Source: Candidatus Omnitrophota bacterium
Lineage (GTDB): Bacteria > Omnitrophota > Gorgyraeia > Zapsychrales > Fredricksoniimonadaceae
Direction: 5' to 3'
Length of the DNA: 64,000 nt
NCBI GenBank assembly: GCA_044225175.1
Contig: JBGAJA010000002.1
Coordinates: 280,991-344,990, forward strand
A program made the position numbers and the translations under genes. The notes beneath the pieces were generated by a model that had not been told where the DNA came from, did not search any database, and saw nothing but the letters and a program-made list of their open reading frames with translations. Shown here piece by piece: positions 1 to 48,813 of the stretch. Within the stretch, counting starts at the first letter, position 1; every line of letters begins with the position of its first letter.

Positions 1-310
1 ACCCTGCTGATATCGATATTGTTGCTATCATCAATGATAATTATTCAGGAAAGAAACGATTGAAACTTAAAGGAGAAGAAATCTCCAAAAAGATATTTCA
101 TTCTCATTATGCCAGATTTACCGATTTTGTGGATGTGTCTTTCATGACGCAAAGACAGTTAATGGAGGATTGGGGCGTTAAAACAACACTTGCTAACTTT
201 GGAATTGTATTGAAGGCACAAGACCTTTGGGATGAACCTTTGACCCATGCACGCAAAAGCCATATCAACCGTTTGGAGAAGGCACAGGATCTATTATCTG
301 AGTCTCAAAG
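1..310 (+). other. Domain: C-terminal part of a minimal (Pol beta-like) nucleotidyltransferase fold, copy 1 (inside the giant CDS)
   Basis: The translation DIDIVAII...FTDFVDVSFMTQRQLMEDWGVKTTLANFGIVLKAQDLWDEPLTHARKSHINRL aligns at about 43 percent identity with copy 2 near nt 5150-5345. Confidence 0.5.
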
Positions 311-3300
311 AATACTTGATCTTAATAAACCCTACATTACTGAAGGAGAAGAGGCTTTAGGACGAGTATATAGTCGTTTTGACCAGGCCAACCTATTTCT
401 TTTGAAAGATTATCCACAGTTAGCCTTATCTGAAAACAAAATGAGGAAATTGGCTGTTGAAATCAGACATTATTTAGATAGATCCACTAGATTTGCTGAA
501 AAGCATGCAATGCTTCAATCTATCCAGAATGAATTAATAGAGAGCATCTATTTGGCAAGGCGGGAACTAGTACGAAGGGAATTGGCAAACTTGAATATCA
601 AGGCATTTCAACCTTCTGTAAATATCCGTGCTGGACCTAGAGCCAATCTAGTTCCTATTTCTATTCCTGCAGCAGTTATGCTGGCCTCTATTGGCCTTAA
701 CCCAGACCCTGCCTTAGCAAAGGCATTCATTATTCTAGCAATGATTTTCTTCTTGTTCCTTATTGGAAAGATAATCATCAGTTTTAAGAATTTTTCATGG
801 AGACTTCACCTACGACTGCCATGGACACGTGTTCGAACATTGACTCCCAAAGAGATGCTAGAGACCCTCGAAGACATTGCCATGTCTTATCAGAAGCAAT
901 GGAGCAGAGTTTCTAATCAAAAATTGTTCTTTCAAAGAAAGACAAGAGCATTAGCTAAATCCATTGTCAGAAATACCATCCGAGTAATTTCTCATACCCA
1001 AGCCCCTCAGAATAATTTAAAGTCGGCGATTGTCTTTATTCAGAGACAATTTGAACCTAAAGAAGCAGGACATAATAAAAGCCAAATAATGTATGAAACA
1101 TTACTATTGGCCTTTTGGAAGACAGTTTCTCAAAAGACTTCGATGAAAGACCAAGGAACAAATTTGATTGTCTGGTTGGATAAGTATATAAGCATGGGAC
1201 TGTTGTACTATGCCATTATTGTCCAGATGAAACTGCTTCCGATTGCGATTTTCTCCAGGTATGTGTTATCAAGATGGCGTATTTATATTGAATACAAGAA
1301 AGAAATGAATAGTCATTTTAGAGACGACCCAGAACTCCAAAAGTGGGTCGTTACTATGCAAACCATGATTCAAGAAGGCAAGAAGAATATAGACATAGTT
1401 AATGCTATTAAGAAAGCACCTTTTGCCCACATATCTATTGATCTTTACAAAGACTTGCTGACCTCTTCTTATATGAATTCAAGATCGTTCTATCTTTATA
1501 GTTATTTATACATCTTTGAGGAAATCCAAAGATCATCCTCGAGCGCCAACAGAGAATTTAATATGCGGCAGACCATTGGCATGGTTTTAGGAGATGAGGG
1601 ACTAGAGCTTTTTGACTACGTTACGAAAAGGATGGGTGTCCAAATTCTATTTATTGAGAGAAAAGACGAGGATTTAAATGATCCGAACTTTATTAATCTA
1701 AGAGAAAGAAAAGTTTATCTTAATCAAGGTTCTTCTTTTGTGATGAATGCATTTAGGTTTTTATCACTGGCACGTTTCTTTTTAAACCATAAGTCTTTGG
1801 GTCCTTATCATTTCTTAGTTGATGTTAAAGCGGATAAACTACCGCTGAAATTTCTCTGGAAGTTATTTAGAAATCGATTTAAAGATCCCACAATCAAGGA
1901 CTTATTTAACAAACTGACGGTCAAAGAACGTAGACATTACTTTTTTGTATTATGGCATGCCATGGGTATGGGAACGGCTGTTTCTTGGATCAAATGGGAC
2001 TACACCTATTTAGTTGTCAGAAAATTAAAATTATTAGAACAGACCTCAATATTCTTAAGTGAAATTCATCTTTCCAAACAAAGAATCCAAAATATTAATA
2101 GCGATTATTCGTTGAGTAGCCCTGCTCCACCTAAGCGTCTGGCCTCTAAAGCCATGATATTACCAGCCATCAGACTATTCATTCGACGCATTCATTATCT
2201 ACCCTATCTAGCATTCATCTCTGTTATTTATGTTCCAATTATTGCAGCCATTGATTGGAGCAGATTAAGATTTCTAGCGGATCCTTTTATATGGTTATTC
2301 AATAAGCTCATTGAACTAGCAGAATTCTTGAATCTAAAGGAGTTAGCTCGAATATTGAAAAAAATCGCCCATCAAATCAATGAGGCCCTTCAAGGTGTTT
2401 GGCATATGGTGGAGAATTGGGCAATGAACGTTTGGGAAGTAATAGGTCCATACATTATGAATGTCGCCCATGCTGCTGAAGGATTACTGCACTATTTGAT
2501 TTCCCCTGCAGCTTTCATGTTGGGTGCTGTAGTTATAATCCTCACATACTTCGTCACCAAGCTCATGTTTAAATTTATTCTAAGAAAATCCAGCGAGAGA
2601 ATCGTATGGGTAGGGGCAACAGTAAATATTCTAAAGAAGTTAAACAATGATCCTATTCTAAAAATCATCGGGATCGTTGCAAATAAAATTAGTGTCTGGG
2701 TTGGAGGGCTGTTTTTTATTGGGGGAGCGATTGCGATAACCACTGAGGCTCTTGCTTTCATAGGAAAACACCTTTTGTTAAGGTGGGATTATCTTCGCGG
2801 GTTTAAATATAAAATTTCACTAAGCGATGATTCGTACAAAGCATTTTTCAAAATGATTCATGAAATGTTTTCTCGTATCCAATCACATCTGCCTAAAGAT
2901 TTAAATGAAGACTACAGAAAATTAGTCGTAGAACAAATTCTTAAGAAAGAAGAAGAAATCAAGGAACTCATGACGCAGCTTATTACTTCTGGCATGCGAA
3001 GTATGGAAGAAAATATCACTTCTGCTGCGCCGGTAGCTTCATTAAGAAATGACCACTGGATCAATTTAATACTGGCACCGATGGATTTATTATCGAAGGA
3101 CATCAATGCGCGTTTAGAGACATGGCACTCTATGGGGATTCCTTTTACGCATGTTCATTTTTATTTTACATGCGGATCGTTCTTTGGCATGGCGCTTCTT
3201 ATTTTGATCTTTCTTCCCAGAGAATTCATTAAAATTTATGTCGAAGACATTAAAAGACTTTTCAGGTTTATCTTTACTAAACGAATCAACAGCTTATCCA

Positions 3301-6300
3301 GTGAGTTAAAGAAATTGAGAGGTTTACAAGACATTGACTTTACATTAGAAATTGCCGAGAAAAGATTAGGGCGCTTCACGTATGTTATTAAAGCTTACGG
3401 CCAAGAATTTAATACACGATTAGGGGTTTTTACAAGTGTGTCTAAACTATTTATAAGAACATTCTTTAATAAACCAAGGCCATACCTCTTGCCTGCACCG
3501 CATATAAGCAAGGCTTTTAGTCCAGGGGAAGATGCAAAGAATATAGAAGAAGGTTCTCCTAGTCAAAGTCGAGATGTTGATTCAAGAGATAAGATTCAGA
3601 CGACAACTGTTTTCATGGGTAGTCTGAGTGTTATGCGTGCAGGACCAGAAATACATTCCGTTGATAGCATTAATTGGACGTATGAATTGGCCCATCGCTA
3701 TGGTCCAGTTCTTTCACACGATTTAGTATTAATCCTTGGAGCTTTTGTCTTAATAGTAATGTTGTTTTTTAACAGAATTATTACAGAGTGGATCTTTAAG
3801 TTTATATCGAAAAGTAATGCAAGAATTCTTAATAAGGATAGCAATCCCTTGAAGATCAGAATGACCTCCATTGAAAACCACACCATAGTCATCCAATACT
3901 CCAGAAACAAATTCACAAATATCTATCGCAGCACAGACAATGATGTTTTGCTGATGGATTCCCAGAGACGATCAAAAGATATTTTTGTATATAAGGCTGC
4001 CCAGGCAATTTCAATTAAAGAAGATCAAAAGTTGAGACATGGAGACATAGAGATATTGGTTGAACCAGGCAGTATGGTTACGATTAAGAATTTCGGGAAA
4101 AAGCCAATTAAGATTATGACTGAGTCCGAACTCTCATTAGATGACCAGGACTATTTTAGAAGAGGTACAGCGGTAGTATTAGGTGGCGGTTATTTGTTGC
4201 TTGTATTTAATCGTATTTTGTTTGATTTTAACCTCATAGAAGTTGCTGGATTAACTCTGGCCCTCATCTTATTTCTAGTAAAAAGAACAGACGATGATAA
4301 ACCCACAAAGTTAAATTATTTAATTTATCGCATCCTTAATAGAACAGAAAACATCATTAATTACATTGATGATTTCTTTAGAAGGACAAACAAGAAGCGC
4401 TTCTTCCTTATTCCTCAATTTTTCAGGTCATGGAAACCATCTACTCAGTCTTTTAATGATGATCAAATTGATTTTGTGGTTTCTTATTTGCATGGTTTAG
4501 TCGCATCTCGTAAGATTTTCTCAGAGAATGATTTAATATGGACGTATCGACTAGCTAAGAGCTGCATTCAAGTTAGACAAATCGATCGTTTTGTTCAGGA
4601 ACATTTGGAAAAATGGGCTAGGGAGAGCCGGGATTTACGTGTTCTTTCGGCTATTATTACCGGATGGATCCAAGCTCCCCAAAGCAGAGGAGGCATTGAT
4701 AGATTAACGCAGATATTGATTAAAACCCACGGATTTTCTAAGAAAACAGTTACATCCTCTCTTTTAATGAAAATTGCCAAGCAAGGTGCGGACCAGGCGA
4801 GGTATGAATCGGTAGATGATGATGTCTCAGATGATAGGGTCCCTTCTTATAGAAAACAACTGAGGGACCGCTCGATCTACAAGCATCAACGTTTCGGTCT
4901 TCAAAAGAAAATTTTAAGACGCGTAGCATCTATCGATGTCACGCGACTAAAAGCATTCTTAGAAGAAGAGTTGTCCAACATCTCATCACAGAAAAATTCA
5001 ACTCAAGGGTGCGTTAAAACAATCATAGTCTTTGGAAGTTTTCTTTATGGAACTCGTCGAGAACCAACTGATTTGGATGTTTATGTCATTGTTGAAGGGG
5101 TTGAAGTTAAACAACTCGTTAAGAAGACAGTAAACATTCCTAGATATGTGTTCTCAGATGAATACTCACGATTAACACGATTTGCAGATTTGCATTTTAT
5201 GAATCGAGAAGAGTTAATAAGAGACATAGGTTTTCGAACATCAGCAGCGAATGTCGGAATTGTGTTAAGAGGAGAAGGATTAAGAGATGAGCCTTTGACC
5301 AATGCTAGATCCTCCGATTTTAATCGTCTTGTCCGTGCCTCAACGGCCATGAAACATGGCATGAAAATGATAGAAAGCACTGTCGAACATGATCGTCGTT
5401 ATCCTGATGCCATTCCTGTATGGAGGGCCAAAGCATGGAGACGTATTACGGAATCCCATTTATTTATCCAAGAGGTAGATTCTTCTGTGACAGCGCACGA
5501 GGATTTTATTGAGGAACTATTATATGGGATGGAGCGTTACAATGAAGATCCTCATAAGAACCATGATGATTTTCAGTGGCAGCTTAAGCGCACTCACGCC
5601 TTAGTAATAGCATCATTACATTATGCCCGCATGTCATTAGTTTGGCGTTATTTAAGAAGTGTTCGTCCTCCTCAAGTTCCGACAATAAGACATAAGAGGG
5701 CCTTTGGCATAACGGTTTTGCCTGTTGTGTTGTCTGGTTTATTTACCGCAGCATGCTCCATCATCTTTATTGTAAGACACCAGTTATCGATGGAATACGA
5801 GTCTCTAGTGAACATAGGAGCGCGCCTAGAAATTTTAATACCAATTCTCTTGCTGTCAGGGATCTTTGCAGTACCTTTCCGCAGAAATTCTAAGAAATCT
5901 GCTGTGATTAAAATTCAAGGCAAGCCAGAGGAAGAATATTTGTTAATGCTGAGGTTTTTCTTTGTCAATTTATTGTCTATCAATTTTCGGCTTATGCAAA
6001 TTACAACTCAGGAGAGCCCAGATCGAAGAAAGTTCAGACCCATTATTAAAGACTTAGTGAACATTAGCCGTAATTTTAAGGAACGGTTGAGCGCTACACA
6101 GAAAGCTTATGATCAAGAATCAATTCCTTATAAACGAAATTTACTTTCTTCCCGCATCGAGTGGATGACAATTATGAATACTAAACTGATCAGGGCTTGG
6201 GGTTTATTGACAGATAAAGCTAATGGCCCCGCGGTCAGCCAAATTCTTTTATTTCAAGCCGATTCTTTGTTTAAGAGATACACCCAAGCCCATTTAAAGA

Positions 6301-9300
6301 AAGTAGAAAGAGACCGCATTCGATTAAGAAGCAGGCACTTGGATTATCCTACAGGCAAAGGGCGTATTTGGACAAACGTGAAAGAGAATGTGGATAAGCT
6401 TACCCGATGGGCCCACACTTCAACTAAAATTTCTAAAGGAATGGAAATCACAAGCCCTCAAGTCATTGAAATTAGTTTTAAAAGCCGGTGGCAGATGAAT
6501 CGTTCCAATGGTCATGCGCTGAATTCTGTGATGGCAAATCAAAAGAAATTCCAATTGATTGTTGAGACGCTTCAAGAATTAGAAAAGCAATTAATCACCT
6601 ATAAAGAAAAAGGATCCATAGACCCTCCTTTATTAATGCAATTATTTGATCCGATCGTCAGATTACTAGATCAATTTATCGGTCGAGATACGAAGACAAT
6701 TATTGAAGAGCTTGAGTTAGCTGCATCAGCATGGCAAACCGCTGAAATGCTTCTTAAAAGCAAGAATTGGAAATGGGGAATGACAACGATCAGTTGGGCC
6801 AAAAGATTTTTCGAAGGACGATTAAAAGAATTGCAACAGCAAAGGATTTATTATGAACAGAACAAACTCCTTCCTACATTTGGCATGACATTTGAACGGA
6901 ATGCCTCTATTTTTCAGCGAGTCGTAGAAATCGAAACAGACGGAAAGTGGAATACAACTGTCATCACAAGACTCATCAAAGACCTAGAACCCAATCAAGA
7001 TCCAGATATTGTACTTATCTTAAATTCTTTGATGGACGCTCAAAAGCATTACGTACAAGGAAAACGAGTACGTGCAAGCAAATATCTGGCTGAGGCCAAG
7101 CTAAGGGTGGGAAATTCGAACCTGCTCTATGAATTCTTAATGATTTATAGAGACCATGTTAAAGGCTTTATTTTAGATGGATATCTTTTAAAAGATGCTC
7201 ACCACACGGGTTTTATTAAAGCTTTTGAACAATTTTTACTAGACCACCCTCAAGAAGTGAGATTCAAAGCAGTATGGACATACCGTTTCTTCCAGGCTGT
7301 TTTTGTCAGATTTAAAGTCGAAGCACCTAAGCAAAAAGGAAAAAGGGTCATAAAAATTCCTAATCCTTTATTTATTTGGTTCTCAAAATTAATTGAAACG
7401 ATTGAATCCAAAGGGTTCTTTCAATTACCTAAAGCTGAACGTGAAAAAATCCCCTATCAAATTGCGCAGGAATTAGAACTTGATCTGCCACCAACGAAGG
7501 TTGAAGAAACGATCAAAGCAGTGACGTCTTACATTCCAAACACCCAACATCTTCCAATAGCAGCTAATAGTGTGGACCAATGGCTGATCGATTTAGGATT
7601 ACAGGCCTTAAATTATTCACGCAATACACTCTTTAATAGACGAGGAACTCGTATTTTTATCAGAGCCCTTAATTTACATGTGCAGCAAATGCAGGATGTG
7701 ATTGAATGGATTGCAGAACAAAGCAAACTCAGAGGTAGAATCGTCTATGCTAAGCCCACCCCCAATAAAACTCCCGAAGGCGAAGAAATTTGGCACTTAA
7801 TTTCTTCTAAAACTTACGCCAGACTTGACCCAAAAGACAGAAAAGTTTACCACAAACTTGAAAATATTCCTGATCCTCATCTCAAATGGCTTGGTATTGA
7901 TCGCGAAGATCTGAGAAGAACATTTACTTTAGAGATAGCTAGGCAAGCGGTTGAGTTAGGTAAGGAAACAGGTAATCAAACCATGGTTGATATTTATCAA
8001 CCGTTCTTGGATTGGTTGCAGCAATCCTATAGACCAGATCCTAATGAGTCTTCTATCTCCATGCAGGAGCCATTTGCTTATATCGAAGGTAATGCCATAG
8101 TGATGGCATCTATTTATTCCAAACTTTCCCCGCATCTAGAAAGGCGAGTCCAAGAACATGAACGCCTTCATTTGAAACACCCCACGATCACTGATGAAAT
8201 GGTCATTTGTCAAAAACATGCTCAAGCTGTCCTCATGGATCAAATCAAAACAATCAGCACCTTCAAAGGCACAAGTTTTTCAAGCCGTGACTTTCAAAAT
8301 AAAATCAAGGCTATTTTAGCCTATGAAGGAAAATCTAAGGAAAAAGTCCAGAAATTCATAAGAGTGGCCATCAAAACCATGGCCCAGCTTGTCCAAGATA
8401 ATGATCAATTGCAAATATTTTATGGTTTATTAGGAGAAATTATAGGCGTATATCAGGTGCTTTTTAGCCAGAATACCGTGCTGGAAGGTCTTGATTTGGG
8501 AGACATTAAAGAAATCAATTTAGAATTGGCTATTAATGGCAAACCCCGAGAAATGGACTGCGTTACTTCTCGTGCCCTCATTGAAATCAAATTTCAACTG
8601 ACATGGTACAAATTGCTTGAACAAATCATTAATAACCGTAAGGATGGAGGGAGTTCATATTTAGCATCTTTGGAATGGGAATCACTTGGATTTGGACACA
8701 TTCGTAAAATTATCTATTTTGGATACAAAGATTATGGTTCTATGGCGCAAGGCCTTATTGAGTACTTAAAGAATCATCCTGCAGATCTAAGTCATTTGAA
8801 ATTCACAGAAGAAGGCTTCCGTTTTGAGATTTCTTTCCAAAAGTTGTTTGATTTTCTTTTTTCTAAAGAAATCCAAAAAGCAGTGCAAGAAGAGAACCGG
8901 CGACGATCTCTAGTGAGCTATTGGCAGGAAAGATCTCAAGCTGTATTTGAATTGATCCAACGCCTTGCCCATCGTTTGAGCGAAGAGCCTAAAACATTAG
9001 TCATTGCTGTCCATCAAGCAAGGAAAAAGGACTTAGCCATTTTAAGAAATCTAGGAAAAGGAGTTACGAGCCAAAGTGATTCTAAGGAAGAGTTCTTGAG
9101 CTATAGGACCTCCAAATACATGCAATTCTTTTACACTATTTGGCCTAAGACTTTAGGCCATCTTAAAGGAATTGGAATGATTCCAAGTGAACATGAAAGT
9201 CATGTGATTATCCGCAATGGTGACAATCAACCTAAATGGACAATTTCACTAGAAGACCTAAGGAGGGCTTTAGAAGACATATATTCCTTAGACACATCTT

Positions 9301-12300
9301 CAGAGTCCGTTTTATCTACCGAGGAAGTCATAGACCTCGTTTGGGTCAAATATTCAGAACCTACTGAAACTCTCGGGCTGGAAGCTCAGAGAACTTGGCT
9401 GTTAGAAAATAAGATCCAAAATCAAGAGTGGTCCCTGGAAGAGATTGATTATCGCCTAGAAAAACTCTTTGAGGCCATCCAAATGGATGAACTTTTTAAC
9501 CTGGAGATAGATCAACTCAATATTAAGAAATCTATTGAGCAGAATGGTTTTCTTAACCTTCCTGAAGACAAGTTAATTGCACTAGCTTCAAAAATCAAAG
9601 AATACCATGCCCACTTGCAGGAGTTCTTTGATCTTCTTTATCAAGCCTGTGAGCGATTCAATCAAATGGCTCAGAAAGAACGTGAACGTCACAATAGATT
9701 GGGCATTTATGATCGTCAGAGAATATTATTGCAAGTGCTTTTAACATGGAACCCCACAGACCGATATTTAAGGAGAAAACTGGCTTTTATCAGTAATTTA
9801 CTCGGTCAGCAGGATCAAGCCGAAGCAATCCTCTTGGGCGTAAGACCGCGGGCTGAAGATGATGTGATTGAGGCTGCTAATGTGAAATTAGACATGGCCA
9901 GGCATTTGTATGGACAATTGAAAATAGACTTAATGTACCGCCGTTCTGCTCTAGGCGAGATATTAGAAGAAATATTATCTAAGTCCCGTCAAGGCAGAGA
10001 CATCTTAAGAACTTTTATTTTATCGCACAAAAAGGGCTCACCTATCCATAAGTTGTCAATGGTCTACTCCAAATTAGCTTCATTCCATGAATTAATTGGA
10101 ACAATTTACAACCGGCTTTCAATGACAGCCTATTTACGCAAATCTCAAGAGTATAATTTAATGGCTTTTCAATCCATGGTTCATGCCGTGTCATTAACTG
10201 TTCAGGCCCTTAAAATGGATTCTAATAACTGGCATGCCATTCGTAAGCTACCCATGATTCTTTCGCTTACTCAGCGAACGATTCAGAATCTCAAGATCAC
10301 CATTCAAAACTCTGAAAATATCTATAAATCATTGGAAGAATTAAAAAAAGCCTTAGGAGATTTAAATATACCTTCATTTCAATCACACAAAGCAAGGATT
10401 GATGAAATTATTCAGGAAAAGCTTGAGATATGTTTGTTTTATGAAAACCTGAGCGGACGTTTTGTTGCAGTGACAATAGAAATGCTCAAAAAGGATCTCT
10501 ATACCACTCAGGAAGATTTAATAAAAGCGATCTTAGCTAACAGTGAATTAGGGAAAGAAGATGAGATTCGCAGATTAGAGGAAGTCTTCAGACATAGAAT
10601 GCGAGAACTCGATCTTATTGCTTTAGACATGGCCATTATTTATTTCTATTTTGAACTTGAGGAAGAGCTGCGTGATTTAGAGAAGCTTCCTGCTTATCTA
10701 CAAATGGTCACAGGCCTTGAGAAAATTCAGATCCGAGATATTAAAGACAGGGTAGTTAATAAAAAAGATTTTTATGCTTTGTTAGGGATAGAAGTGACTG
10801 AGAAAACAACTACGGAGGAGGAACCTCAAAACATTCTTTATAATAAAACTAATATCCGACATTTCTTGATCCAAGATCCCTTAAGATTGGAACAGCTATA
10901 TGAACGTTTACAACAACTTCGAGGATGGATGAAATATAAAGAATTTCAGTCCTTGTATGATCTTTATCAACAGGTCAAAGATAAAGTGACAGACTTCTTG
11001 AACCAGGGGAATGATGTCATTGAGTCATCTAAGAAAGAGGTGACTCCTCAATTAGCCAAGTTAAGAAATTTACGTGTAGGTCCACAAGGATATGTAACAC
11101 AGCGTCAGCAATTAGAGCAAAAAATTGAGAATGTTGTCAGAAAAGTTAAAGAGCAATTAAGTCAGGGAAAAGACCAATTAATGCAGTATTTTAAAATTAT
11201 CCAAGAAGTAGAGGCTATTTATAAGTCTAAATGGATTAAGGAAGTTAAAGCCAGGATCGAATCAGCCATTAAGGAAATGGAATTACTGCAACACAGCCAG
11301 AATAAGAACTATTTGTCCAGATGGCGTTACCAAGAGCTTTTAAATCAAAGAACCCATTACGATGTTATCTTGGCACCTTTATTTGAGCATAGAGGTCTTC
11401 TTAAAGAAATCCACCAGATCATACAAGAAGTTGAAGGAATGCTGGCTCAGAAAGATATTCTCAATGGCCATATGTCAACATGGGCATTAATGTGGCAAGC
11501 GATCAAAGAATCTTATGAGGATGTCGCTTTTGAAGATCAAGCTTTTGTACAAATCTCTATGAGTAAATTTGAAATGATGATCTTTGCTAAGAAATTAAGA
11601 AAAACAGTAAAGACCAACCAGGATTTCGATACTCTTAGGAAGAGGCATGGGGAGTTGGAGAAAACTTACATGCTACATAACGGCATTTATTTAAATCCAT
11701 CCACAGAATACTCTTTCAAGGAAAAAGAGATCAAAGATCTTTTGAGTCAATGGCAACAGAAGTATGAAGAGTGGATGGCCTTGCCATTTGATTCGAAGAA
11801 TTTCATCCCCTATGCATTGAGAGTAAAGGTTATTTATAAAGAACTGCTTGAGTCGATCAAGGACATTCAAGAAAAGATCAGGATTTTAGTCAATGAAAAG
11901 AACTCAGTACTGCTTGTCCAAATAGAAGATCTTGAGAAGTTTGTCAATGAGTTCTTTGTATGGATCGAAGGGGAAATCCTACCTACATATAAAGGTCATA
12001 CAAGATCTAAGACGAATTTACATCAATTTATGAAAATATTTAGAAATTACATTCATTCTTTAAAAGGGATATTAGCCACTGATGTCGACGATAAGAATTA
12101 TCTGCGATTAGTCGCGCAGGGTACAGAGAAACTGAACTGTTTAGCATCTTTAGCGGTATCTTTACAAGTTATTTATAACGAGGAACTTGGTTGTATAAAA
12201 AATACTCTGTTAAAATATGTTCCCCGCTTTGAGACACGTTCCAATGAATACGATCTCGCAGAATCTTTTTCTGCAAGTATATTCGGTGTTAAACAAAACC

Positions 12301-15300
12301 ATCCAAGCTCTCTTACATACAGAATAAGTCAAGCTCAATCAGAATTAAGAAAATGGTTAAATTATAAAGATGGTCCTATGCCTTACTGGGAGTGGTCTAA
12401 TGTAAATTTTATAACTTTAAATGTATACCTTTTTTTATGGTCCAATAATAATTCTTTGCCAATCCCACCTTTATATGAGGTAGTTCAAAAAGCATACAAA
12501 GATATTGTATCTAGAAGGTTAGAAGTATTCCAAAAGAACCCTAATCCTCTAAGAAAACCTATGACTACGATTAGTATTCTTAAGGGGTGGAGGACCATAC
12601 AAGGCGTTCTCAATCGGGTCTTAACTAATCACATAGAAGGATGGTCTTTCTTGCTAATAAAGAGAAAATTTGGCGACGTATTTAATAAAGCCCAATCGAT
12701 CAAGGAGAATAATGCAAAGAAATTATCTGTTCATATTTGGCCTTTGATGTTGATTGGGATGGGATTAACCATAGGGCAGCAGTACGGTATCTATGGAATC
12801 CGTGCAGGGGCTCAGTCGCAATATGTTCTTGGTTCGCAACAGATTTTATTTTCTGTGCTGGGCGTATTAAGTGGCATTTTGGCTTTGCTAGTAGTTGGCC
12901 TTATCCTCATATTCCTTTCGGATATCTGGAGAGCTTTTAAAGATCCCAATTCAAAAATTTATAGGATTTTAGATGTTGTTTTAACTGTCCTCATGATCCC
13001 TTTATGGATTCCTGTGAGCTTCTTAATGGGATTATATGTATTTGTTCTTTTGAAACACCATGGTTCATCTCAATCGGTCCTTTTTAAACAAGAAAGAATC
13101 GGACATCAAGATCAACCATTTATGATCTACAAATTCTGCTCCATAATTAATACTTCCAACGGAAAAGAGATTGTTCTCAAGCATTTACGTAAATCTGGTT
13201 TAGATGAAATTCCTCAAGTCATCAATATTTTCAAACGACAAATGTCATTATGGGGGCCGCGGCCTGTTCGACAGGAAGACATTGATAATGGCCGTTATCC
13301 AGACTATTCATTAGAAATACGAAGAAGATTACCAGGATACCTAAGCCTTTTCGTTCTTGACCGAGGCGCCGGTGATGGACATTCTCCCAAGGACCAGAAA
13401 ACGATTGAAGCACAAGGCAAGCGATTCCAAGAATTGTCACAGCGGGAATATGAGCATTGGAGCCCTATCCTTGCAATTAGTCTTATACTTGAATTTGGAT
13501 TTTATCTTTTGAAATTTATAGTAAGACTATTTGGTTTTGGAAATAAACTCAGAGGGCCGCCTTCTTTAATTATAAATGATGTAAAAATCCTGCCTACGCT
13601 GACCCCAGAAGATACTCTCGAGCTTCCTCCTCCATCAGATTTAAAAGACAAAGGTTTTCTTACAAAGTCGATATTCATTAAAGATCAGATCCAACAAGGC
13701 CAATTGAGTACGATTGTTCTTCCAGATTTCCCATATAACTCTCCAATATTAATCCGTATATTTGAATGGCTCGATGGGGATGAATCCATCCGAGAATTGA
13801 TGGACATAGTCTACGGGTATATCCCGTCTTTAAAATTGTTTAACCATGTGTCTTTGATCACGCTTTTAGATGAAGTCAGAACATGGAAACCAAAGAACCT
13901 GATTGCAACTATTGGTGCACAAACTAATACACGAGAAGAGATTCAACGACGATTATTCGATGCTATTAATCATGGCGCAACAGGTGTTTTGGTGGTCTCT
14001 GGCGGAGGAGCATGGCGACGAATATTCACGGGTATTGTCTCTATATTAAATATCCTCTCACCGCTTCTTATCACAGTATTTATCGCAAGGATCATTCAGC
14101 GTAAATATCTTTCTATGGATTCAATGAAAATCCTGGAACTTATCAGTGAAATGAAACAACGAGGACAGATCGCTCAAACAATTACTGTATGGGCTGTAGC
14201 TAATCCTTATCGAGATTCTATTAAAAGGATTGAACATAAGATTGAGTGTGGGGCACAGAGAATATTGATCCAACCGCCAATTCTTTGGGAATTATTTACA
14301 TCGTGGTGGAGAGAAGCCCAGACAAGCAAGCTTAAAGAAAAAATCATTGTAGGCATTCCTTATATTGCATCATTGAAGTCGTTGGAATTTTGGTTTTTCT
14401 TAATGAATATTAAGACTTCAAACTGGCCATTCTTTAGAAATCGATTGACCCAAGATGCTTATAATTTGCAACAGCAATTTATTCAGGTCCAGAAGTTAGG
14501 GAAAAAAGCTGAAGAAACATTCATTGAACAATGGAATGCCGATTTCAAATCTCGAGTGCATCATTTGTCAGGATTTATAGGGGGCCATCACATGCCTGTT
14601 ATGGCATGGGGACGGGTGGGCCGCAAAGAAATCAATGAGATGAGAGATAAGCTGCAGACCCTATTAGGAACAGTGATTGAATGGGGAGGGAATTCTTATA
14701 GCGTAGATGCCAACATGGTTGTGTTACATCGAGTCTTAAGTGTTTTACTTCGGATGATTGATGAAAAGAAGATCGATCTTAAAGGTACCTCTGCGTTGAT
14801 CGAGAGGATCTTTTTTATTCATACCATTGCCCCCAATAGTTCTCAGCTTATGATTGATCCAAGGCCTCTGTATAGAAATAAGAAGTTTATTGGACGCTTT
14901 GATATTCTTTTTGATTTAAGGCAGCTGGGCAAATTATCTGTATCGGCACTCGAGAAAAACATAGTCATGGTATTAAATATCAACTCTCAAGAAGTTCCCT
15001 CGAAGGCCCTTATGCTTTCGGATCCAGCCCCCATTAGCCAAAGCAGAATCCTCTGGCAATTTAACTACGCCTTTTGGAGAAATCTAAAAGGTCATTTGGA
15101 TGCCACAGGTCAAGACTTCGATGCATCCATTGCAGGCTCTCCGGATTCTAACGATCAATATGTCGAATATTTAGCCAAAAGATTTTTAATCAAGCTCATT
15201 GCTGCCATTAAACAGGAGCCTTCCCAAAGATATTTCTTTCTTGAGATAGGAAGCGCAGGGGCGAAATTCGTTCAACTGTTCTTAACTAAGCTCATGGCAT

Positions 15301-28462: not shown

Positions 28463-28831
28463 ATGTCAGAATTACGTCAAATCCCCCGATGGCAAATTGG
28501 TGAGAGAGCAAAGGTAACACTTAAAGAGCATGAGTGGGAGGGTAAGTGTTTGCTTGAAGACTTGAATCTTAAAGGATTCAAGATATCTTCGAAAGAAAAA
28601 CTGCCTGCAGACACAGTCTTTGAGATTAATCTAGATCTTAAAAGTTATTTAATTCTTGATGCTATTGTGAAGGTCTGTTGGAAGATGGAGCGTGAAGGTC
28701 GTTATCATTATGGGATGGAGTTTCTTAGAATCAAGGACCAGGACAAGCAGGATATTAGTCAGTATTTATTTAAGAATCATGCAGAACAAGTCAAAAATAT
28801 CTGGTGGTCTAGAGATGGGATTAAGGAATGA
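28463..28831 (+). CDS. PilZ-domain-like small protein, a putative c-di-GMP receptor
   Basis: An ATG at 28463 follows AGGA at 28451-54. The translation has RQIPR (RxxxR), then about 25 aa later DLNLKG (D/N-x-S/N-x-x-G), and a C-terminal YGMEFLRI block, matching PilZ layout. The ORF-track start at 28418 overlaps the giant gene's last codons. Confidence 0.45.
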   Translation: MSELRQIPRWQIGERAKVTLKEHEWEGKCLLEDLNLKGFKISSKEKLPADTVFEINLDLKSYLILDAIVKVCWKMEREGRYHYGMEFLRIKDQDKQDISQYLFKNHAEQVKNIWWSRDGIKE

Positions 28832-33980: not shown

Positions 33981-36900
33981 ATGAAGAAAACTTTTCATAT
34001 TTGTCTCTCAACCCTGTTTCTTTTAAGCACCATTCCAAGCCAAATATGGGCTGCCCCCGTCATAGATGCGCCGCCTATTTATGTCAGAGTAGTTGACTTA
34101 AACAATCAGGTGACAGAGCTCAAGCGCGATGTTCTTAATCAAGAACGGGTGAATCGTGATGAAGAGATTGCAGCTAGAGAATTGGCCCAAGAAAATGCAT
34201 TGTTGATTCGAAAAATTGAAGAGTCTCAGAAAAATGCCCTACATAATGCCCCAACCAGCGACTTATTTACAACCATTGACACCATGAAGCAGTTAAAAGA
34301 GGTCATGGAAGATTATGGCCGTAAGTTGGATAATCGCAATCAAACGATGATTGCCCGCAATGAAGAGATTTCTTCCCTACGTGCCAGGATCGATAAACTC
34401 GAACATCTTTTCGATGAAGTCATCAAGCTTTATAACAATACGCAAGCAATGAAAAATCCTCCCCTTGCGCAGGAAATTCCAGCAAATTCCTTGGTGGCCA
34501 GCTTAGAAGAACAAAAAGAAGAGTTGTTATCAAAAAACAAATTCCTCTCCGAGAAATATAAACAATTGATGGAGTATAAACAGGAATTGGCCAATACCAA
34601 AGATCAGCTACGTAAGCTGCAGGCAGAGAAAATACAACCACCTTTAGCTGTTGTGGTTCAAAAAGAACCTGGCGTAAACAATAATGAAGAAATACAAGAC
34701 TATAAACAGCAATTAGCGGATGCAAAAGACCAGATTAATAAACTTCAGAGAGAAAAAACACAATCACCCTTAGCGGTTGCTGTAGTTGAAAAAGAAGCCA
34801 AAGCAAATAATAAGCAAGAAACGCTTATGTATAAACAGCAATTAGCAGATGCTAAAGACCAAGTTACTCAATTGCAGTCAGAGCACAAAGATCTTTTAGA
34901 AAGTGTAGATCAATTAAAGTCTCAAATTAAGAAAATCAGAGATATGCAGTCTTCTCTTGAGGAGAAAGACCAGCGATTAGGTCAAATGAATGAGATGATG
35001 TTTCAAAAAGACCGACAAATTGCAGAGCTTAAGAATGATTTGTCCCAAGCCAATGAGAATTTGAATAAAGCCAAAGCAGAAATTGCCCTAAAAGACAATA
35101 CAATCAAGGGCCAGCAAGCAGCCTTAAGTAAACAACAGCAAACTCTAGCAAATCTCCAGCAGGAAGTTTTAGATGTTAGAGCAAATATTAAGAAAGTTCA
35201 GTCTAATTATAGTGAGGATCAAGGCGGTTTTGAACGCATTCGTCAAAACATTGTAGCTTTGAAGTCTAAGTTAAATGAAGCTCAAGGCCGTGCTGCATTG
35301 GCTAGTACCCAAGAAGTTGAAATGATTAAACTGAAAGGTGATATTGCAGCTTTGACATACCAGCTTCAAAATGCCCAAGAAGATTTAGTTGAATATAAAA
35401 ACACAGTGGCCCAACAAAAGAAGATCGTTGCTGAACAAAAGACTCTCATTGATCAGCAAAAAGCTGCTATTGAAGAACATAAAGCCATCATTGAGCAAGA
35501 ACGAGTGATCATTGAGAAAGAAAAACAAACGATCCATGAACATAAAAATGCTATTGATTTGCTTAACAGTCAATCTCTCCAGAAGGAACAAGGATTAAAA
35601 GATAAGGATGTGAAAATTGAAGGGTTGAATTTGCTGGTGCGTTCACAAGATCAAGATTTGAAGAATAAAGAGCTCCAGATGGCTCAAATTGAGCAACAGA
35701 AAGTTCAAGAGATTTCCACATATAAGAACATGGTAGGAAATCTGAAAGAAAATCTGCAATCTTTGATACAGCAAATCAACGCATTAAAAGATGATGTGGC
35801 TAATTCTTTTAATATTCAAGCTCAGATGAAAGAACGCGTGGGGCTGCAGGATATTTTGCTTTCTAAATATCGAGTTTTAGAAGATTTAGCCTCACAAAAA
35901 TGTGAACTGCTCATGCAGCTAGCTATCAAATTTAAGGACCGAAGAGAATATTACAAAGATCAGCTTAAGAAAACAGTAGTGTACTGGCAGGATTTGAATT
36001 CACAAAGCGAAGGGCAAATGGAAGGCTTAAAAAAAGAAATCTCTTCCAAGCAAGAACAGTTAGATGAAATCCAGAAACAATTTGAAGCCAATAAGGCTAA
36101 GAGCGCTCAATTAGAGGGCATGTTAGATGTGTATCAAAAGAAAATTGATGAGGGTGATGTTCAGGCCAAAGAGAAGACCAAACAAATCGATCAACTTCAA
36201 GGAGATTTACAAACCGCTTTAGATGCCGTTGATCAACGACAAAAAGACATTGTAAAGGTCAGAGACTATTTTTATGAACTCGAGAAGAAATCTTCAGAGA
36301 AAAGCAAGGAATTGCGAGAGAAGAATCAGGAACTTGCTTTACTTAATGCAAGTTTAGAAGGCAAAAAAGAAAGCATCTCCCAATTAAATGCTAGACTTGC
36401 CTCCATTGAAGCAAAATTAAAAACGTCAATTGATTCAAGTGCTTTGGATCAACACAAAGAACAGATGACGGCCTTGCAGGAGAAATTGACTGTTGCTGAA
36501 GAAAAACTCAAGACAACTGTCGATCAAGCAGAATTGAATCAAACTAAAGAATTCCTTAAATCATCTACAGATGAAATGACGGAACTCAAGAATTCTTTAA
36601 AAGATAAAGAAATGCAAATTGAACAAATCAAGAAAGATAATGTAGATAATGTTTCGCTTCAAAAAAGTTTATCGGAAGCTAAAGAGAAAATAACCAAACT
36701 AATGGAGGATTCTTACTACAAAGATAAGCAAATCCAGCGTCTGAACATGCTCGTTTCGCAAAAAGACAAAACGAAGAACAAGGATGCAAAGATTAAGGAA
36801 TTGACCAAACAAATCGATGAGCGTAATCAACAAATTAGTTCACTCAAACAGCAGATAGAAAATTTGCAAAAGCCAACACCCATGACCAAAGAGGACAGAG

Positions 36901-37079
36901 ACATAGGTGTTTTAAAGAAGCAGCTAGAACTCGCTCAAAAAGAAACTGCACAAGCCAGAGCAACGGCCAGAGATAAAAATAAACAAGCTAAAGAATTAAA
37001 TGACCAAATCGTCATTCTCCACAAACAAATCCAAGAGCTTCAAAAGAACATCGATTCCTTACGAAATATTTCAAAATAA
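33981..37079 (+). CDS. Large secreted coiled-coil protein (1032 aa)
   Basis: The protein has a signal peptide (MKKTFHICLSTLFLLSTIPSQIWA). Almost all of it is Q/E/K-rich heptad-repeat sequence. Confidence 0.75.
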   Translation: MKKTFHICLSTLFLLSTIPSQIWAAPVIDAPPIYVRVVDLNNQVTELKRDVLNQERVNRDEEIAARELAQENALLIRKIEESQKNALHNAPTSDLFTTIDTMKQLKEVMEDYGRKLDNRNQTMIARNEEISSLRARIDKLEHLFDEVIKLYNNTQAMKNPPLAQEIPANSLVASLEEQKEELLSKNKFLSEKYKQLMEYKQELANTKDQLRKLQAEKIQPPLAVVVQKEPGVNNNEEIQDYKQQLADAKDQINKLQREKTQSPLAVAVVEKEAKANNKQETLMYKQQLADAKDQVTQLQSEHKDLLESVDQLKSQIKKIRDMQSSLEEKDQRLGQMNEMMFQKDRQIAELKNDLSQANENLNKAKAEIALKDNTIKGQQAALSKQQQTLANLQQEVLDVRANIKKVQSNYSEDQGGFERIRQNIVALKSKLNEAQGRAALASTQEVEMIKLKGDIAALTYQLQNAQEDLVEYKNTVAQQKKIVAEQKTLIDQQKAAIEEHKAIIEQERVIIEKEKQTIHEHKNAIDLLNSQSLQKEQGLKDKDVKIEGLNLLVRSQDQDLKNKELQMAQIEQQKVQEISTYKNMVGNLKENLQSLIQQINALKDDVANSFNIQAQMKERVGLQDILLSKYRVLEDLASQKCELLMQLAIKFKDRREYYKDQLKKTVVYWQDLNSQSEGQMEGLKKEISSKQEQLDEIQKQFEANKAKSAQLEGMLDVYQKKIDEGDVQAKEKTKQIDQLQGDLQTALDAVDQRQKDIVKVRDYFYELEKKSSEKSKELREKNQELALLNASLEGKKESISQLNARLASIEAKLKTSIDSSALDQHKEQMTALQEKLTVAEEKLKTTVDQAELNQTKEFLKSSTDEMTELKNSLKDKEMQIEQIKKDNVDNVSLQKSLSEAKEKITKLMEDSYYKDKQIQRLNMLVSQKDKTKNKDAKIKELTKQIDERNQQISSLKQQIENLQKPTPMTKEDRDIGVLKKQLELAQKETAQARATARDKNKQAKELNDQIVILHKQIQELQKNIDSLRNISK
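34575..34960 (+). repeat. Three tandem units of about 126-129 nt (about 43 aa) inside the coiled-coil gene
   Basis: Units start at 34575, 34701 and 34830 with tataaacag(g/c)aattagc. They encode YKQ(E/Q)LA(N/D)(T/A)KDQ...LQ..K.Q.PLAV.VV.KE. Confidence 0.6.
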
Positions 37080-43186: not shown

Positions 43187-43234
43187 ATTTACCTCAAGTG
43201 TACCATATGGTTTCTTAGAAGGCAAAAATCAAAG

Positions 43235-43318
43235 TGCTGGGAGAGGGAATCGAACCCTCACAGCCGTGAAGCTACTGGTTTTTGAGACCAGCGCGTATAC
43301 CAGTTCCGCCATCCCAGC
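43235..43318 (-). tRNA. tRNA-Leu (anticodon CAA)
   Basis: The sequence was folded by hand. The acceptor stem is GCTGGGA/TCCCAGC. The anticodon stem is CTGGT/ACCAG with loop CTCAAAA. A long variable arm is present. The T-arm is GAGGG-TTCGATT-CCCTC. The discriminator is A. Confidence 0.85.
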
Positions 43319-43324
43319 AAAATT

Positions 43325-43402
43325 TGGTGGAGTTGAGGGGGGTTGAACCCCTGACCTCCTGCATGCCATGCAGGCGCTCTACCAAAACTGAGCTACAACC
43401 CC
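43325..43402 (-). tRNA. tRNA-Ala (anticodon GGC), CCA encoded
   Basis: The acceptor stem GGGGTTG/CAACTCC carries the G3:U70 Ala identity pair. The anticodon loop is ATGGCAT. The T-arm is AGGGG-TTCAACC-CCCCT. Confidence 0.85.
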
Positions 43403-46838: not shown

Positions 46839-46839
46839 A

Positions 46840-48397: not shown

Positions 48398-48407
48398 GAA
48401 TATATGT

Positions 48408-48780: not shown

Positions 48781-48813
48781 AAAATAAGTCTCTATATTTA
48801 GGAGAATCTTTAT

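What the first reader, a model, noticed from the sequence alone, without database searches (positions are those of the whole stretch)
1..28430. A single gene of more than 28.4 kb, open at the 5-prime end, encoding a protein of more than 9,470 aa that is enzymatic and membrane-spanning rather than adhesin-like
One reading frame runs from the first nucleotide of the window to 28430 without a stop, in an AT-rich genome where random ORFs are short. Giant bacterial proteins are usually built from Ig/cadherin/RTX-type extracellular repeats. This one is instead dotted with hydrophobic helices along its whole length. It carries catalytic motifs of at least seven different enzyme families (see the separate findings). 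That combination in one polypeptide is, to my knowledge, undescribed.
Basis: seen in the sequence. Interest (0 to 1): 0.9.

Follow-up and report, generated by a model that had tools for sequence, protein, structure and literature searches.

The report
Giant membrane-anchored multi-enzyme protein gene
The 28.4-kb open reading frame is real and encodes a membrane-stapled chain of many different enzymes. Such giant multi-enzyme membrane proteins have already been described in Omnitrophota and related PVC bacteria, so this is a new, sequence-orphan example rather than a new kind of protein.

Summary
Observation confirmed. One frame is stop-free from nt 3 to 28427 (9,475 codons, stop at 28428-28430), and host-like codon usage favours that frame in every 1.5-kb window. 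The window begins inside a nucleotidyltransferase domain, so the gene continues upstream. An independent short-read assembly carries an identical last 2,213 aa.

Content:
- 39-51 hydrophobic helix-like segments.
- A polyprenyl-phosphate sugar-phosphate transferase, a GT9 glycosyltransferase, two SAM-methyltransferase modules and an MTHFR-like module.
- Two nucleotidyltransferase-like modules.
- A CPBP/Rce1-like and an M50 intramembrane protease, with catalytic motifs intact.
- Seven copies of an orphan 100-aa domain.

About 73% of the protein remains unassigned.

Large soluble modules are followed by tight two-helix hairpins with K/R-rich flanks. This suggests that the enzymes stay on the cytoplasmic face.

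The claim that this is undescribed fails. TM-rich multi-enzyme giants ('Archaeovorins'; 'multi-enzyme' class) are reported for Omnitrophota, and very large genes for other PVC phyla.

This copy has almost no sequence relatives: two partial hits among 5.8 billion protein clusters. It shows no SecA-like domain in the part seen and no secretion genes downstream, and a PilZ gene follows it.

Verdict: new member of a known kind; moderate interest.

The parts
3..28430 (+). Giant ORF, 9,475 codons plus stop, open at the 5' end
3..584 (+). Nucleotidyltransferase-like module, copy A (aa 1-194). It is cut by the window edge and begins at the DxD motif 'PADIDIV'.
   Evidence: 28% identical to aa 1688-1884, E 1e-19; alignment
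642..779 (+). TM hairpin 1 (aa 214-232 and 241-259, 8-aa loop)
4971..5654 (+). Nucleotidyltransferase-like module, copy B (aa 1657-1884), with GS-x11-DLD
   Evidence: Pfam NTP_transf_2 20.5 bits against a cut-off of 21; Polbeta 20.6 bits; motif. No PDB support.
5718..5870 (+). TM hairpin 2 (aa 1906-1956)
5871..12854 (+). Unassigned region of 2,328 aa with no strict TM-like segment (two weaker hydrophobic stretches at aa 1980-1998 and 2803-2821). Somewhat enriched in helix-forming residues.
12957..13487 (+). Polyprenyl-phosphate glycosyl-phosphate transferase module (Bac_transf, aa 4319-4495). It has a re-entrant helix, the 'LDEIPQ' Asp-Glu dyad and GPRP.
   Evidence: Pfam 7.7e-22; NCBIfam EPS_sugtrans 4e-21; aligned to PglC 8e37
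13887..14624 (+). MTHFR-like module (aa ~4629-4874)
   Evidence: HMMER hits to ~320-380-aa proteins that match Pfam MTHFR. Profile A4 hits MTHFR structures at E 5e-5.
14907..16184 (+). Second SAM-methyltransferase-like module (aa ~4969-5394). Together with the MTHFR-like part it equals a free-standing ~860-aa protein in other bacteria.
   Evidence: also 36.5% identical to part of P0001
16203..16331 (+). TM hairpin 3 (aa 5401-5443)
16383..17282 (+). Three copies of an orphan ~100-aa alpha/beta domain (aa 5461-5760), followed by a ~125-aa helical tail
17673..17813 (+). TM hairpin 4 (aa 5891-5937)
17850..19052 (+). Four more copies of the 100-aa domain (aa 5950-6350), followed by a homologous helical tail
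19524..20285 (+). Polytopic membrane block of about 8-9 helices (aa 6508-6761), with no family match
21003..21491 (+). GT9 (heptosyltransferase-family) glycosyltransferase, C-terminal nucleotide-sugar domain (aa ~7001-7163)
   Evidence: Pfam 2.2e-16; NCBIfam heptsyl_trn_I 5e-11
22914..23114 (+). TM hairpin 5 (aa 7638-7704)
23274..23588 (+). Class I SAM methyltransferase (aa ~7758-7862), motif I 'IIGVGGG'
   Evidence: Pfam Methyltransf_11 4.3e-6, 27.7 bits against a cut-off of 21.2; motif
23871..24926 (+). Unassigned module shared (26% identity) with a 7,831-aa protein of another MAG (P0002)
25041..25508 (+). CPBP/Rce1-like glutamic intramembrane protease (aa 8347-8502) with EEVVFR, FALVH and HVIND
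   Evidence: Pfam 7.8e-21; NCBIfam MroQ/MrtJ; motifs
25740..26282 (+). M50 site-2-protease-like module (aa 8580-8760) with HELGH and 'PSISDG'
   Evidence: Pfam 1.6e-10; motifs
28463..28831 (+). PilZ-domain gene (122 aa from the ATG at 28463) 33 nt after the giant's stop, on the same strand, with no terminator-like site between them
   Evidence: Pfam PilZ 5.9e-12; also present in the independent contig

Best explanation
This is a genuine single gene of a chromosome from an uncultured, probably PVC-related bacterium. It encodes the C-terminal >=9,475 aa of a very long inner-membrane protein.

The protein is a string of otherwise independent cytoplasmic-type enzymes and unassigned modules. Membrane segments between them tie the string to the membrane.

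Shown:
- The frame is continuous and coding throughout.
- It contains a polyprenyl-phosphate glycosyl-phosphate transferase, a GT9 glycosyltransferase and two methyltransferase modules.
- It contains an MTHFR-like module and two nucleotidyltransferase-like modules.
- It contains two intramembrane proteases (CPBP and M50), all with catalytic motifs intact.
- At least one module (MTHFR-like plus methyltransferase) is a free-standing gene elsewhere.
- Five soluble blocks are followed by tight two-helix hairpins.

Inferred:
- The hairpins are N-in/C-in by the positive-inside rule.
- Every recognised soluble enzyme needs a cytoplasmic cofactor (nucleotide sugar, SAM, NTP or flavin/NAD(P)H).
- The soluble modules therefore sit on the cytoplasmic face as a membrane-tethered enzyme array.
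- The array most plausibly builds and modifies a lipid-linked glycan or another envelope component: the transferase starts on polyprenyl phosphate, GT9 extends, and the methyltransferases decorate.
- The co-oriented PilZ gene suggests c-di-GMP control.
- The embedded proteases act either on the giant itself or on client membrane proteins.

By architecture it belongs to the described class of TM-rich multi-enzyme giant proteins of Omnitrophota and other PVC bacteria. It is not a demonstrable homologue of any of them.
For: - ORF and coding signal. Independent assembly of the last 2,213 aa.
- Enzyme domains. Motifs. PglC alignment with the conserved Asp-Glu dyad.
- MTHFR-like plus methyltransferase module: free-standing homologues P0003 and P0004 at 38% and 34% identity over the full length. 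Pfam on the hits. PDB profile hit to MTHFR. The free-standing gene sits beside the fab operon in L085.
- Hairpins: loops of 5-29 aa. K+R is 20% in the flanks, 7.8% in the loops and 13% in the whole protein.
- No Ig, cadherin, RTX, dockerin, NRPS or PKS domains.
- PilZ gene 33 nt downstream with no terminator between.
- The class is described in the literature.
- Related giant ORFs in other MAGs also carry scattered metabolic enzymes: kinase, adenylate-kinase-like, LOG-like, glucosamine-6-P isomerase-like, 2-hydroxyacid dehydrogenase, M48, FHA and GT9.
Against: - Topology rests on a home-made hydropathy scan and the positive-inside rule. No dedicated predictor was run and there is no experiment.
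- In aa 399-1423, single helices 80-300 aa apart imply that some loops face outward.
- About 73% of the protein has no assigned function.
- The N-terminus is missing, so a signal peptide, a C39/S8 peptidase or a SecA-like domain cannot be excluded.
- No expression data exist.
- The pathway (glycan assembly) is inferred from only two glycan-related domains.
Confidence: 0.6

Rival explanations
1. Extracellular predation or attachment weapon, as proposed for Archaeovorins. Most of the polypeptide would be exported and would act on the surface of a host or prey cell.
For: The literature favours this reading for many Omnitrophota giants. The repeat unit has a weak fold resemblance to carbohydrate-binding stem domains. 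The closest syntenic relative, L002, has pseudopilin-type genes nearby.
Against: Every recognised soluble enzyme here needs a cytoplasmic cofactor. No glycoside hydrolase, lytic transglycosylase, dockerin, TSP3 or HEAT hits were found. No SecA_DEAD hit and no Walker A motif occur anywhere in the 9,475 aa. The 35 kb downstream holds no T2SS, pilus or CAZyme genes; it holds mutL, mutS, accA, the biotin operon and pgi. The hairpin charge pattern favours cytoplasmic modules.
Confidence: 0.15
2. Self-processing polyprotein. The single translation product would be cut by its own CPBP and/or M50 intramembrane proteases at or near the membrane hairpins, releasing separate enzymes and helical 'tail' modules.
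For: Two intact intramembrane protease modules lie in the same chain. Soluble modules are regularly punctuated by TM hairpins. A 16-aa peptide, MMSSLLGFMSPIRAGP, occurs twice next to TM clusters, encoded by 51 nt at 94% identity while the flanks have diverged. In a relative (L082) comparable content is split into adjoining ORFs of 9,648, 435, 2,357, 3,761 and 563+ aa.
Against: There is no evidence of cleavage. CPBP and S2P enzymes normally act on other proteins. The repeated motif occurs only twice, and its three synonymous differences cannot separate selection from recent conversion.
Confidence: 0.15
3. Artefact or non-functional ORF: an assembly chimera, or a stop-free remnant that is not translated as one protein.
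For: The part upstream of window position 21789 could not be checked against an independent assembly. The ORF's GC (0.377) and codon score are lower than those of neighbouring housekeeping genes. Only two partial homologues exist.
Against: P about 1e-288 for chance. The coding signal is uniform in one frame only. There are no long identical repeats. Catalytic motifs are intact in eight modules. The last 6.6 kb are identical in a second assembly. The source is an NCBI contig of 793 kb.
Confidence: 0.05

Closest known systems
Archaeovorin-type giant proteins of Omnitrophota (West-Roberts et al. 2023, bioRxiv 10.1101/2023.11.21.568195; type: the Velamenicoccus archaeovorus giant protein)
   Same: One very long ORF with numerous TM helices and scattered glycosyltransferase, methyltransferase and peptidase domains. 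The domains are highly divergent and long stretches are unannotated. Relatives have almost no alignable sequence.
   Different: In the 9,475 aa available there is no SecA_DEAD, glycoside hydrolase, NUDIX, HEAT or TPR signal. No T2SS or pilus neighbours occur downstream. The host was not shown to be Omnitrophota: the nearest MutS found (57%) comes from a MAG labelled Planctomycetales. The particular set of transferase, GT9, CPBP and M50 is not mentioned in the main text of that paper. Only >=9.5 kaa is seen, against their >=30 kaa definition of 'giant'.
'Multi-enzyme metabolic cluster' class with 'TM-only' topology among long Omnitrophota proteins (Nielsen & Lui 2026, bioRxiv 10.64898/2026.06.07.730766)
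   Same: Many distinct Pfam families tile the chain and none dominates. TM helices are present, and those authors discuss a reading of membrane-anchored, cytoplasm-facing domains.
   Different: This is an architectural class, not a homologous family. By my crude count the TM density here (39 strict segments, about 4 per 1,000 aa) is higher than their average (mean 22 helices at >=10 kaa). The flanks differ: housekeeping genes and PilZ here, against secretion, CAZyme and transposase genes there.
Polyprenyl-phosphate glycosyl-phosphate transferases (PglC / WbaP, Pfam Bac_transf)
   Same: Residues 4319-4495 align to PglC, with the re-entrant helix, the Asp-Glu dyad and the GPRP motif conserved.
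   Different: Here the domain is one bead in a >9,475-aa chain rather than a 200-500-aa protein. Scores are far below the NCBIfam equivalog cut-offs.
Repeat-based giant adhesins (Ig/cadherin/RTX types)
   Same: Size, and one short tandem array (7 x ~100 aa).
   Different: The repeats make up only about 7% of the length and match no known repeat family. The rest is unique sequence containing enzymes and TM helices.

Membership tests
Archaeovorin-type giant proteins (West-Roberts 2023) | Encoded in an Omnitrophota genome | tested here: inconclusive
   The best MutS relative found is 57% identical, in a MAG labelled 'uncultured Planctomycetales'. All others are <=44%. The candidate list was truncated at 600 rows, so closer relatives may exist. 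No rRNA or ribosomal proteins lie in the window.
Archaeovorin-type giant proteins (West-Roberts 2023) | Length >=30,000 aa ('giant') or >=10,000 aa ('large') | not testable with these tools
   >=9,475 aa, with the 5' end outside the window. The upstream DNA was not recovered.
Archaeovorin-type giant proteins (West-Roberts 2023) | Numerous transmembrane helices | tested here: met
   39 strict and 51 lenient hydrophobic segments. This is a hydropathy heuristic only.
Archaeovorin-type giant proteins (West-Roberts 2023) | Scattered glycosyltransferase, methyltransferase and peptidase domains | tested here: met
   Bac_transf, GT9, Methyltransf_11, Rce1-like and M50.
Archaeovorin-type giant proteins (West-Roberts 2023) | Glycoside hydrolase and NUDIX domains | tested here: not met
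   No Pfam or NCBIfam hit at E<=0.5 / 0.05 in the available 9,475 aa. No NUDIX motif.
Archaeovorin-type giant proteins (West-Roberts 2023) | Divergent SecA_DEAD / SecA preprotein-binding domain (present in most) | tested here: not met
   No Pfam hit. No Walker A [AG]xxxxGK[ST] and no DEAD/DEAH motif anywhere in the part seen. It could lie upstream of the window.
Archaeovorin-type giant proteins (West-Roberts 2023) | N-terminal C39 or S8 peptidase / signal peptide | not testable with these tools
   The N-terminus lies outside the window.
Archaeovorin-type giant proteins (West-Roberts 2023) | Type II secretion / pilus or carbohydrate-import genes nearby | tested here: not met
   The downstream 35 kb holds PilZ, mutL, mutS, comM, ykuD, accA, rlmN, iscS, birA-bioFHCDA, mnmA, pgi and an ABC transporter. 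The upstream side was not seen.
Multi-enzyme / TM-only long proteins (Nielsen & Lui 2026) | Many distinct Pfam families, none dominant by copy number | tested here: met
   Six Pfam families, each present once or twice.
Multi-enzyme / TM-only long proteins (Nielsen & Lui 2026) | TM helices without a signal peptide; >=10 kaa | tested here: inconclusive
   TM helices are present, but the N-terminus and the full length are unknown.
Repeat-type giant adhesins | Bulk of the protein made of tandem Ig/cadherin/RTX-like repeats | tested here: not met
   No such Pfam hits. The only array is 7 x 100 aa. TRF finds no nucleotide tandems.
NRPS/PKS megasynthases | Condensation, adenylation, carrier, KS or AT domains | tested here: not met
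   No hits.
Monotopic polyprenyl-phosphate glycosyl-phosphate transferases (Bac_transf) | Re-entrant helix with Pro, Asp-Glu catalytic dyad, GPRP | tested here: met
   'MIPLWIP', 'GLDEIPQ' aligned to 'SLDELPQ' of PglC 8e37, and 'WGPRP'. Pfam 78 bits against a cut-off of 27.
CPBP / Rce1-like glutamic intramembrane proteases | Motifs EExxxR, FxxxH, HxxxN/D on successive TM helices | tested here: met
   EEVVFR 8389, FALVH ~8419-8423, HVIND 8461. Pfam 74.6 bits against a cut-off of 22.4.
M50 site-2 proteases | HExxH in a TM helix plus a downstream ...PxxxxDG zinc ligand | tested here: met
   HELGH 8626 and 'YPSISDG' ~8743-8749. Pfam 41 bits against a cut-off of 27.2. Only the N-terminal half of the profile is matched.

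The most novel reading that the evidence does not exclude
The protein could be a self-processing, membrane-stapled polyprotein. In this reading a deep-branching PVC-related bacterium translates an envelope-biogenesis 'operon' as one chain, inserts it co-translationally by its hairpins, and then uses the embedded CPBP and S2P-type proteases to cut at hairpin-proximal motifs such as MMSSLLGFMSPIRAGP. This would release enzymes and helical regulatory tails, under c-di-GMP control through PilZ. It would be a bacterial counterpart of viral polyprotein expression and would give the first mechanism for this class of giant proteins.
Probability: 0.1. Interest if true: 0.8.

Novelty: new member of a known kind. 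Interest (0 to 1): 0.38.

Why it matters
The function of TM-rich multi-enzyme giant proteins in PVC bacteria is unresolved, and the published readings conflict: extracellular weapon against cytoplasm-facing array. This copy is small enough to dissect. Its enzymes all need cytoplasmic cofactors, its hairpin punctuation is very regular, it has two embedded intramembrane proteases, and a PilZ gene follows it. It also lacks the secretion-gene context used to argue for predation. It is therefore a useful test case for the cytoplasm-facing and polyprotein models. It also shows that 'dark' stretches of such proteins can hide ordinary free-standing enzymes, here an unannotated MTHFR-like plus methyltransferase family.

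Tried and rejected
1. The whole-protein self-BLAST reported no repeats. This was a method failure, because the identity hit masked everything. Tiled BLAST found the 7-unit array and the duplicated nucleotidyltransferase module.
2. Recovery of the upstream contig failed. The N-terminal 500 aa found nothing in genome contigs or metagenome contigs. Exact look-ups of MutS and of the 122-aa PilZ product were not on record.
3. Homologue searches gave very little. The C-terminal 5,000 aa gave two partial hits. The N-terminal 5,000 aa gave none. The repeat-unit profile gave none.
4. The large ORF at the syntenic position in L002 is not alignable to the giant.
6. The model of unit 7 plus its tail had pLDDT 51.5 and was not used. 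The idea that the tail is a sigma-r4-like HTH is therefore untested, and Pfam shows nothing there.
7. The second HExxH, at aa 2719, has no protease context.
8. The nucleotidyltransferase profile found nothing in the PDB.
9. The methyltransferase-2 profile gave only weak PDB hits to PKS C-methyltransferases, E 0.05.
10. Run accessions SRR28480385 and SRR28480388 were not found in the paper library.
11. Alternative genetic codes make no difference to the ORF.

Full report
**Observation**

Frame +3 of the window is free of stop codons from nt 3 to nt 28427 (9,475 codons). It ends with a stop at 28428-28430 and is open at the 5' edge. The window is 39% G+C, so a stop is expected about every 15 codons. 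The chance probability of such a run is about 1e-288.

I trained a codon-usage log-odds score on the neighbouring housekeeping genes. It is positive in the ORF frame in all eighteen 1.5-kb windows and clearly negative in the other two frames, with no discontinuity. G+C is even across the ORF. The only DNA repeats inside it are diverged copies of a protein repeat and one 51-nt motif.

By working out where a Logan short-read contig of run SRR28480385 must begin, I could look up the product expected there. That independent assembly encodes exactly the last 2,213 aa (window 21789-28427), contiguous with the PilZ gene, mutL and mutS. The window's proteins also occur on an NCBI contig of 793 kb.

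The first 194 residues align with an internal module at aa 1688-1884. The window sequence starts about 62 residues into that module, at its DxD motif. The gene therefore certainly continues upstream. Attempts to recover the upstream DNA failed.

**What the protein contains**

Families scoring above Pfam's own thresholds:
- a bacterial sugar transferase, i.e. a polyprenyl-phosphate glycosyl-phosphate transferase (aa 4319-4495)
- the nucleotide-sugar half of a GT9 glycosyltransferase (aa ~7001-7163)
- a class I SAM methyltransferase (aa ~7758-7862)
- a CPBP/Rce1-like glutamic intramembrane protease (aa 8347-8502)
- an M50 site-2-type metalloprotease (aa 8580-8760)

NCBIfam agrees.

The catalytic signatures are intact:
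- The transferase aligns to PglC (PDB 8e37) with the Asp-Glu dyad conserved ('GLDEIPQ' against 'SLDELPQ') and with GPRP.
- The CPBP module has EEVVFR, FALVH and HVIND.
- The M50 module has HELGH and a downstream '...PSISDG'.
- The methyltransferase has 'IIGVGGG'.

A nucleotidyltransferase-like module scores just under threshold (20.5 bits against 21). It has GS-x11-DLD plus a third conserved Asp, and it is present twice. I call it probable, because a two-sequence profile found nothing in the PDB.

One 'dark' stretch was resolved. A full HMMER search of aa 4500-5400 against 1.84 billion representative proteins gave 201 hits. They include free-standing ~860-aa proteins aligned end to end at 38% and 34% identity.
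- The N-terminal half of the stretch matches ~320-380-aa proteins that hit Pfam MTHFR. A 26-sequence profile hits human and Thermus MTHFR structures (E 5e-5 to 5e-3).
- The C-terminal half matches ~370-aa SAM methyltransferases. PDB support for this half is weak.
- In another bacterium the free-standing version lies between the fab operon and smc.

Part of the giant is therefore a fused copy of an ordinary gene.

Tiled self-comparison also found seven copies of a ~100-aa unit at 24-44% identity. They form two super-repeats, each made of 3-4 units, a ~125-aa helical tail and then membrane helices (aa 5461-5937 and 5950-6761).
- The unit folds confidently (pLDDT 87).
- It has no sequence relatives in 5.8 billion protein clusters or in the PDB.

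Recognised modules cover about 27% of the chain. There are no Ig, cadherin, RTX, dockerin, NRPS/PKS or P-loop signatures.

**Membrane segments**

A hydropathy scan gives 39 strict and 51 lenient TM-like segments. They are clustered, not evenly spread, and aa 1957-4284 has none above the strict threshold.

Five soluble blocks are each followed by a tight two-helix hairpin with a loop of 5-29 aa:
- nucleotidyltransferase A
- nucleotidyltransferase B
- the MTHFR/methyltransferase module
- repeat block A
- the block that lies between GT9 and the third methyltransferase

K+R makes up 20% of the residues flanking these hairpins, 7.8% of the loops and 13% of the protein overall. By the positive-inside rule this argues for N-in/C-in hairpins, which would keep the flanking modules on the cytoplasmic side. 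This is inference from a crude method.

**Surroundings and relatives**

Downstream, 33 nt after the stop and on the same strand, lies a PilZ-domain gene with no terminator-like site between them. Then follow convergent mutL-mutS, a coiled-coil ORF, comM, a LysM-YkuD transpeptidase, accA, rlmN, two tRNAs, iscS, birA-bioFHCDA, mnmA, pgi and an ABC transporter. This is an ordinary bacterial chromosome with no secretion, pilus or CAZyme genes.

The closest MutS found (57% identity, with MutL at 50%) is in a MAG labelled 'uncultured Planctomycetales'. There too a large ORF (>=2,717 aa, with a protein kinase and an adenylate-kinase-like domain) converges on mutL, but it is not alignable to this one. 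The phylum is not settled, because that candidate list was truncated.

Among 5.8 billion protein clusters, only two proteins share any segment with the giant. Both are themselves very long and carry scattered enzyme domains:
- a 3,761-aa protein that shares the MTHFR/methyltransferase module; it lies in a run of adjoining large ORFs of 9,648, 435, 2,357, 3,761 and 563+ aa
- a 7,831-aa protein that shares aa 7957-8308

**How it most likely works**

Shown: there is one coding frame. It contains intact catalytic modules of about eight families, regular hairpin punctuation, and at least one module that is a free-standing gene elsewhere.

Inferred: the chain is inserted co-translationally, and the hairpins staple a series of cytoplasm-facing enzymes to the inner membrane. 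All recognised soluble enzymes need cytoplasmic cofactors. The transferase plus GT9 plus methyltransferases point to the assembly or decoration of a lipid-linked glycan or another envelope component. PilZ suggests c-di-GMP control. The two intramembrane proteases could process client proteins or the giant itself.

Rivals are the published 'extracellular weapon' model, a self-cleaving polyprotein, and an artefact. The evidence for and against each is listed in the dedicated fields.

**Comparison with what is known**

West-Roberts et al. 2023 describe Omnitrophota giant proteins with numerous TM helices and scattered glycosyltransferases, methyltransferases and peptidases ('Archaeovorins'). They also note proteins of >=10,000 aa in other PVC phyla, including Planctomycetota. 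Nielsen & Lui 2026 define a 'multi-enzyme' class and find that 46% of long Omnitrophota proteins are TM-only, read as membrane-anchored cytoplasmic-domain proteins. A survey of huge proteins notes enrichment in PVC phyla and finds that most huge proteins have no TM helix.

Membership in the Archaeovorin group cannot be claimed, for several reasons:
- SecA_DEAD, glycoside hydrolase and NUDIX domains, and secretion-gene neighbours, were tested and not found in the part available.
- The N-terminus and the total length cannot be tested.
- The host phylum is unresolved.

The specific domain set (the polyprenyl-phosphate sugar-phosphate transferase, GT9, CPBP, M50) is not mentioned in the main texts of either paper.

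**Verdict**

This is a new, sequence-orphan member of a known kind. Interest is moderate. It is a compact and tractable case for deciding between the cytoplasm-facing-array, polyprotein and extracellular readings of these proteins.

Noticed in passing
window 28463-28831 (+): A 122-aa PilZ-domain protein (Pfam 5.9e-12; RxxxR present, DxSxxG degenerate as DLNLKG) is encoded 33 nt after the giant's stop on the same strand, with no terminator-like site between them. It may be co-transcribed, which would suggest c-di-GMP control.
   Followed up: partly
window 55564-60237 (+) and 60183-63998 (+, runs off the 3' end): Two further long ORFs (1,557 aa and >=1,272 aa) have no Pfam hit. They overlap by 55 nt in different frames, and each has a hydrophobic segment near its N-terminus. 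They may be a second long-protein locus or one gene with a frameshift. Neither resembles the giant.
   Followed up: partly
window 19541-19591 and 21782-21832: A 51-nt direct repeat at 94% identity encodes the identical peptide MMSSLLGFMSPIRAGP twice (aa 6515 and 7262), each time next to a TM cluster, while the flanks have diverged. It could be a sorting or cleavage motif, or a small gene conversion.
   Followed up: partly
L002 14396-22546 (-) (CAZAXH010000018.1, labelled uncultured Planctomycetales): The closest relative found (MutS 57%, MutL 50%) also has a large ORF (>=2,717 aa; protein kinase plus adenylate-kinase-like domain; no TM-like segments) converging on mutL, but it is not alignable to this giant. 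Pseudopilin-type (N_methyl, DUF4900) genes lie upstream of mutS there.
   Followed up: partly
L082 (JGI 3300056624, Ga0558117_03137): A 52.9-kb contig is almost entirely filled by adjoining same-strand ORFs of 9,648, 435, 2,357, 3,761 and 563+ aa. They carry LOG-like, glucosamine-6-P-isomerase-like, 2-hydroxyacid dehydrogenase and DsrC-like domains. The 3,761-aa protein shares the MTHFR-like plus methyltransferase module.
   Followed up: partly
L085 9881-12844 (+) (Ga0209514_10000024); proteins P0003, P0004: A family of free-standing ~860-990-aa proteins (MTHFR-like N-half, SAM-methyltransferase-like C-half) is essentially unannotated in Pfam. In L085 it lies directly after plsX-fabH-fabD-fabG-fabF and before smc.
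   Followed up: partly
window 33981-37079 (+): A 1,032-aa ORF has only weak coiled-coil-type Pfam hits and lies in a region of strong AT skew (0.18-0.23). It is identical in the independent Logan contig.
   Followed up: no
window 44731-50765 (+): A compact biotin cluster: birA, bioF-like, an alpha/beta hydrolase (bioH-like), a methyltransferase (bioC-like), bioD and bioA. It is followed by mnmA, a MORN-repeat protein, pgi and an ABC transporter. The organism is therefore not extremely reduced in cofactor synthesis.
   Followed up: no
window 43234-43402 (-): Adjacent tRNA-Leu(CAA) and tRNA-Ala(GGC) genes. Rfam found no other RNA families in the window.
   Followed up: yes
window 3-28427 compared with 28431-64000: The giant ORF is lower in G+C (0.377 against 0.408) and scores lower on host codon usage (0.03-0.24 against 0.19-0.36) than the housekeeping neighbours. 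This fits low expression, fast evolution or foreign origin.
   Followed up: no
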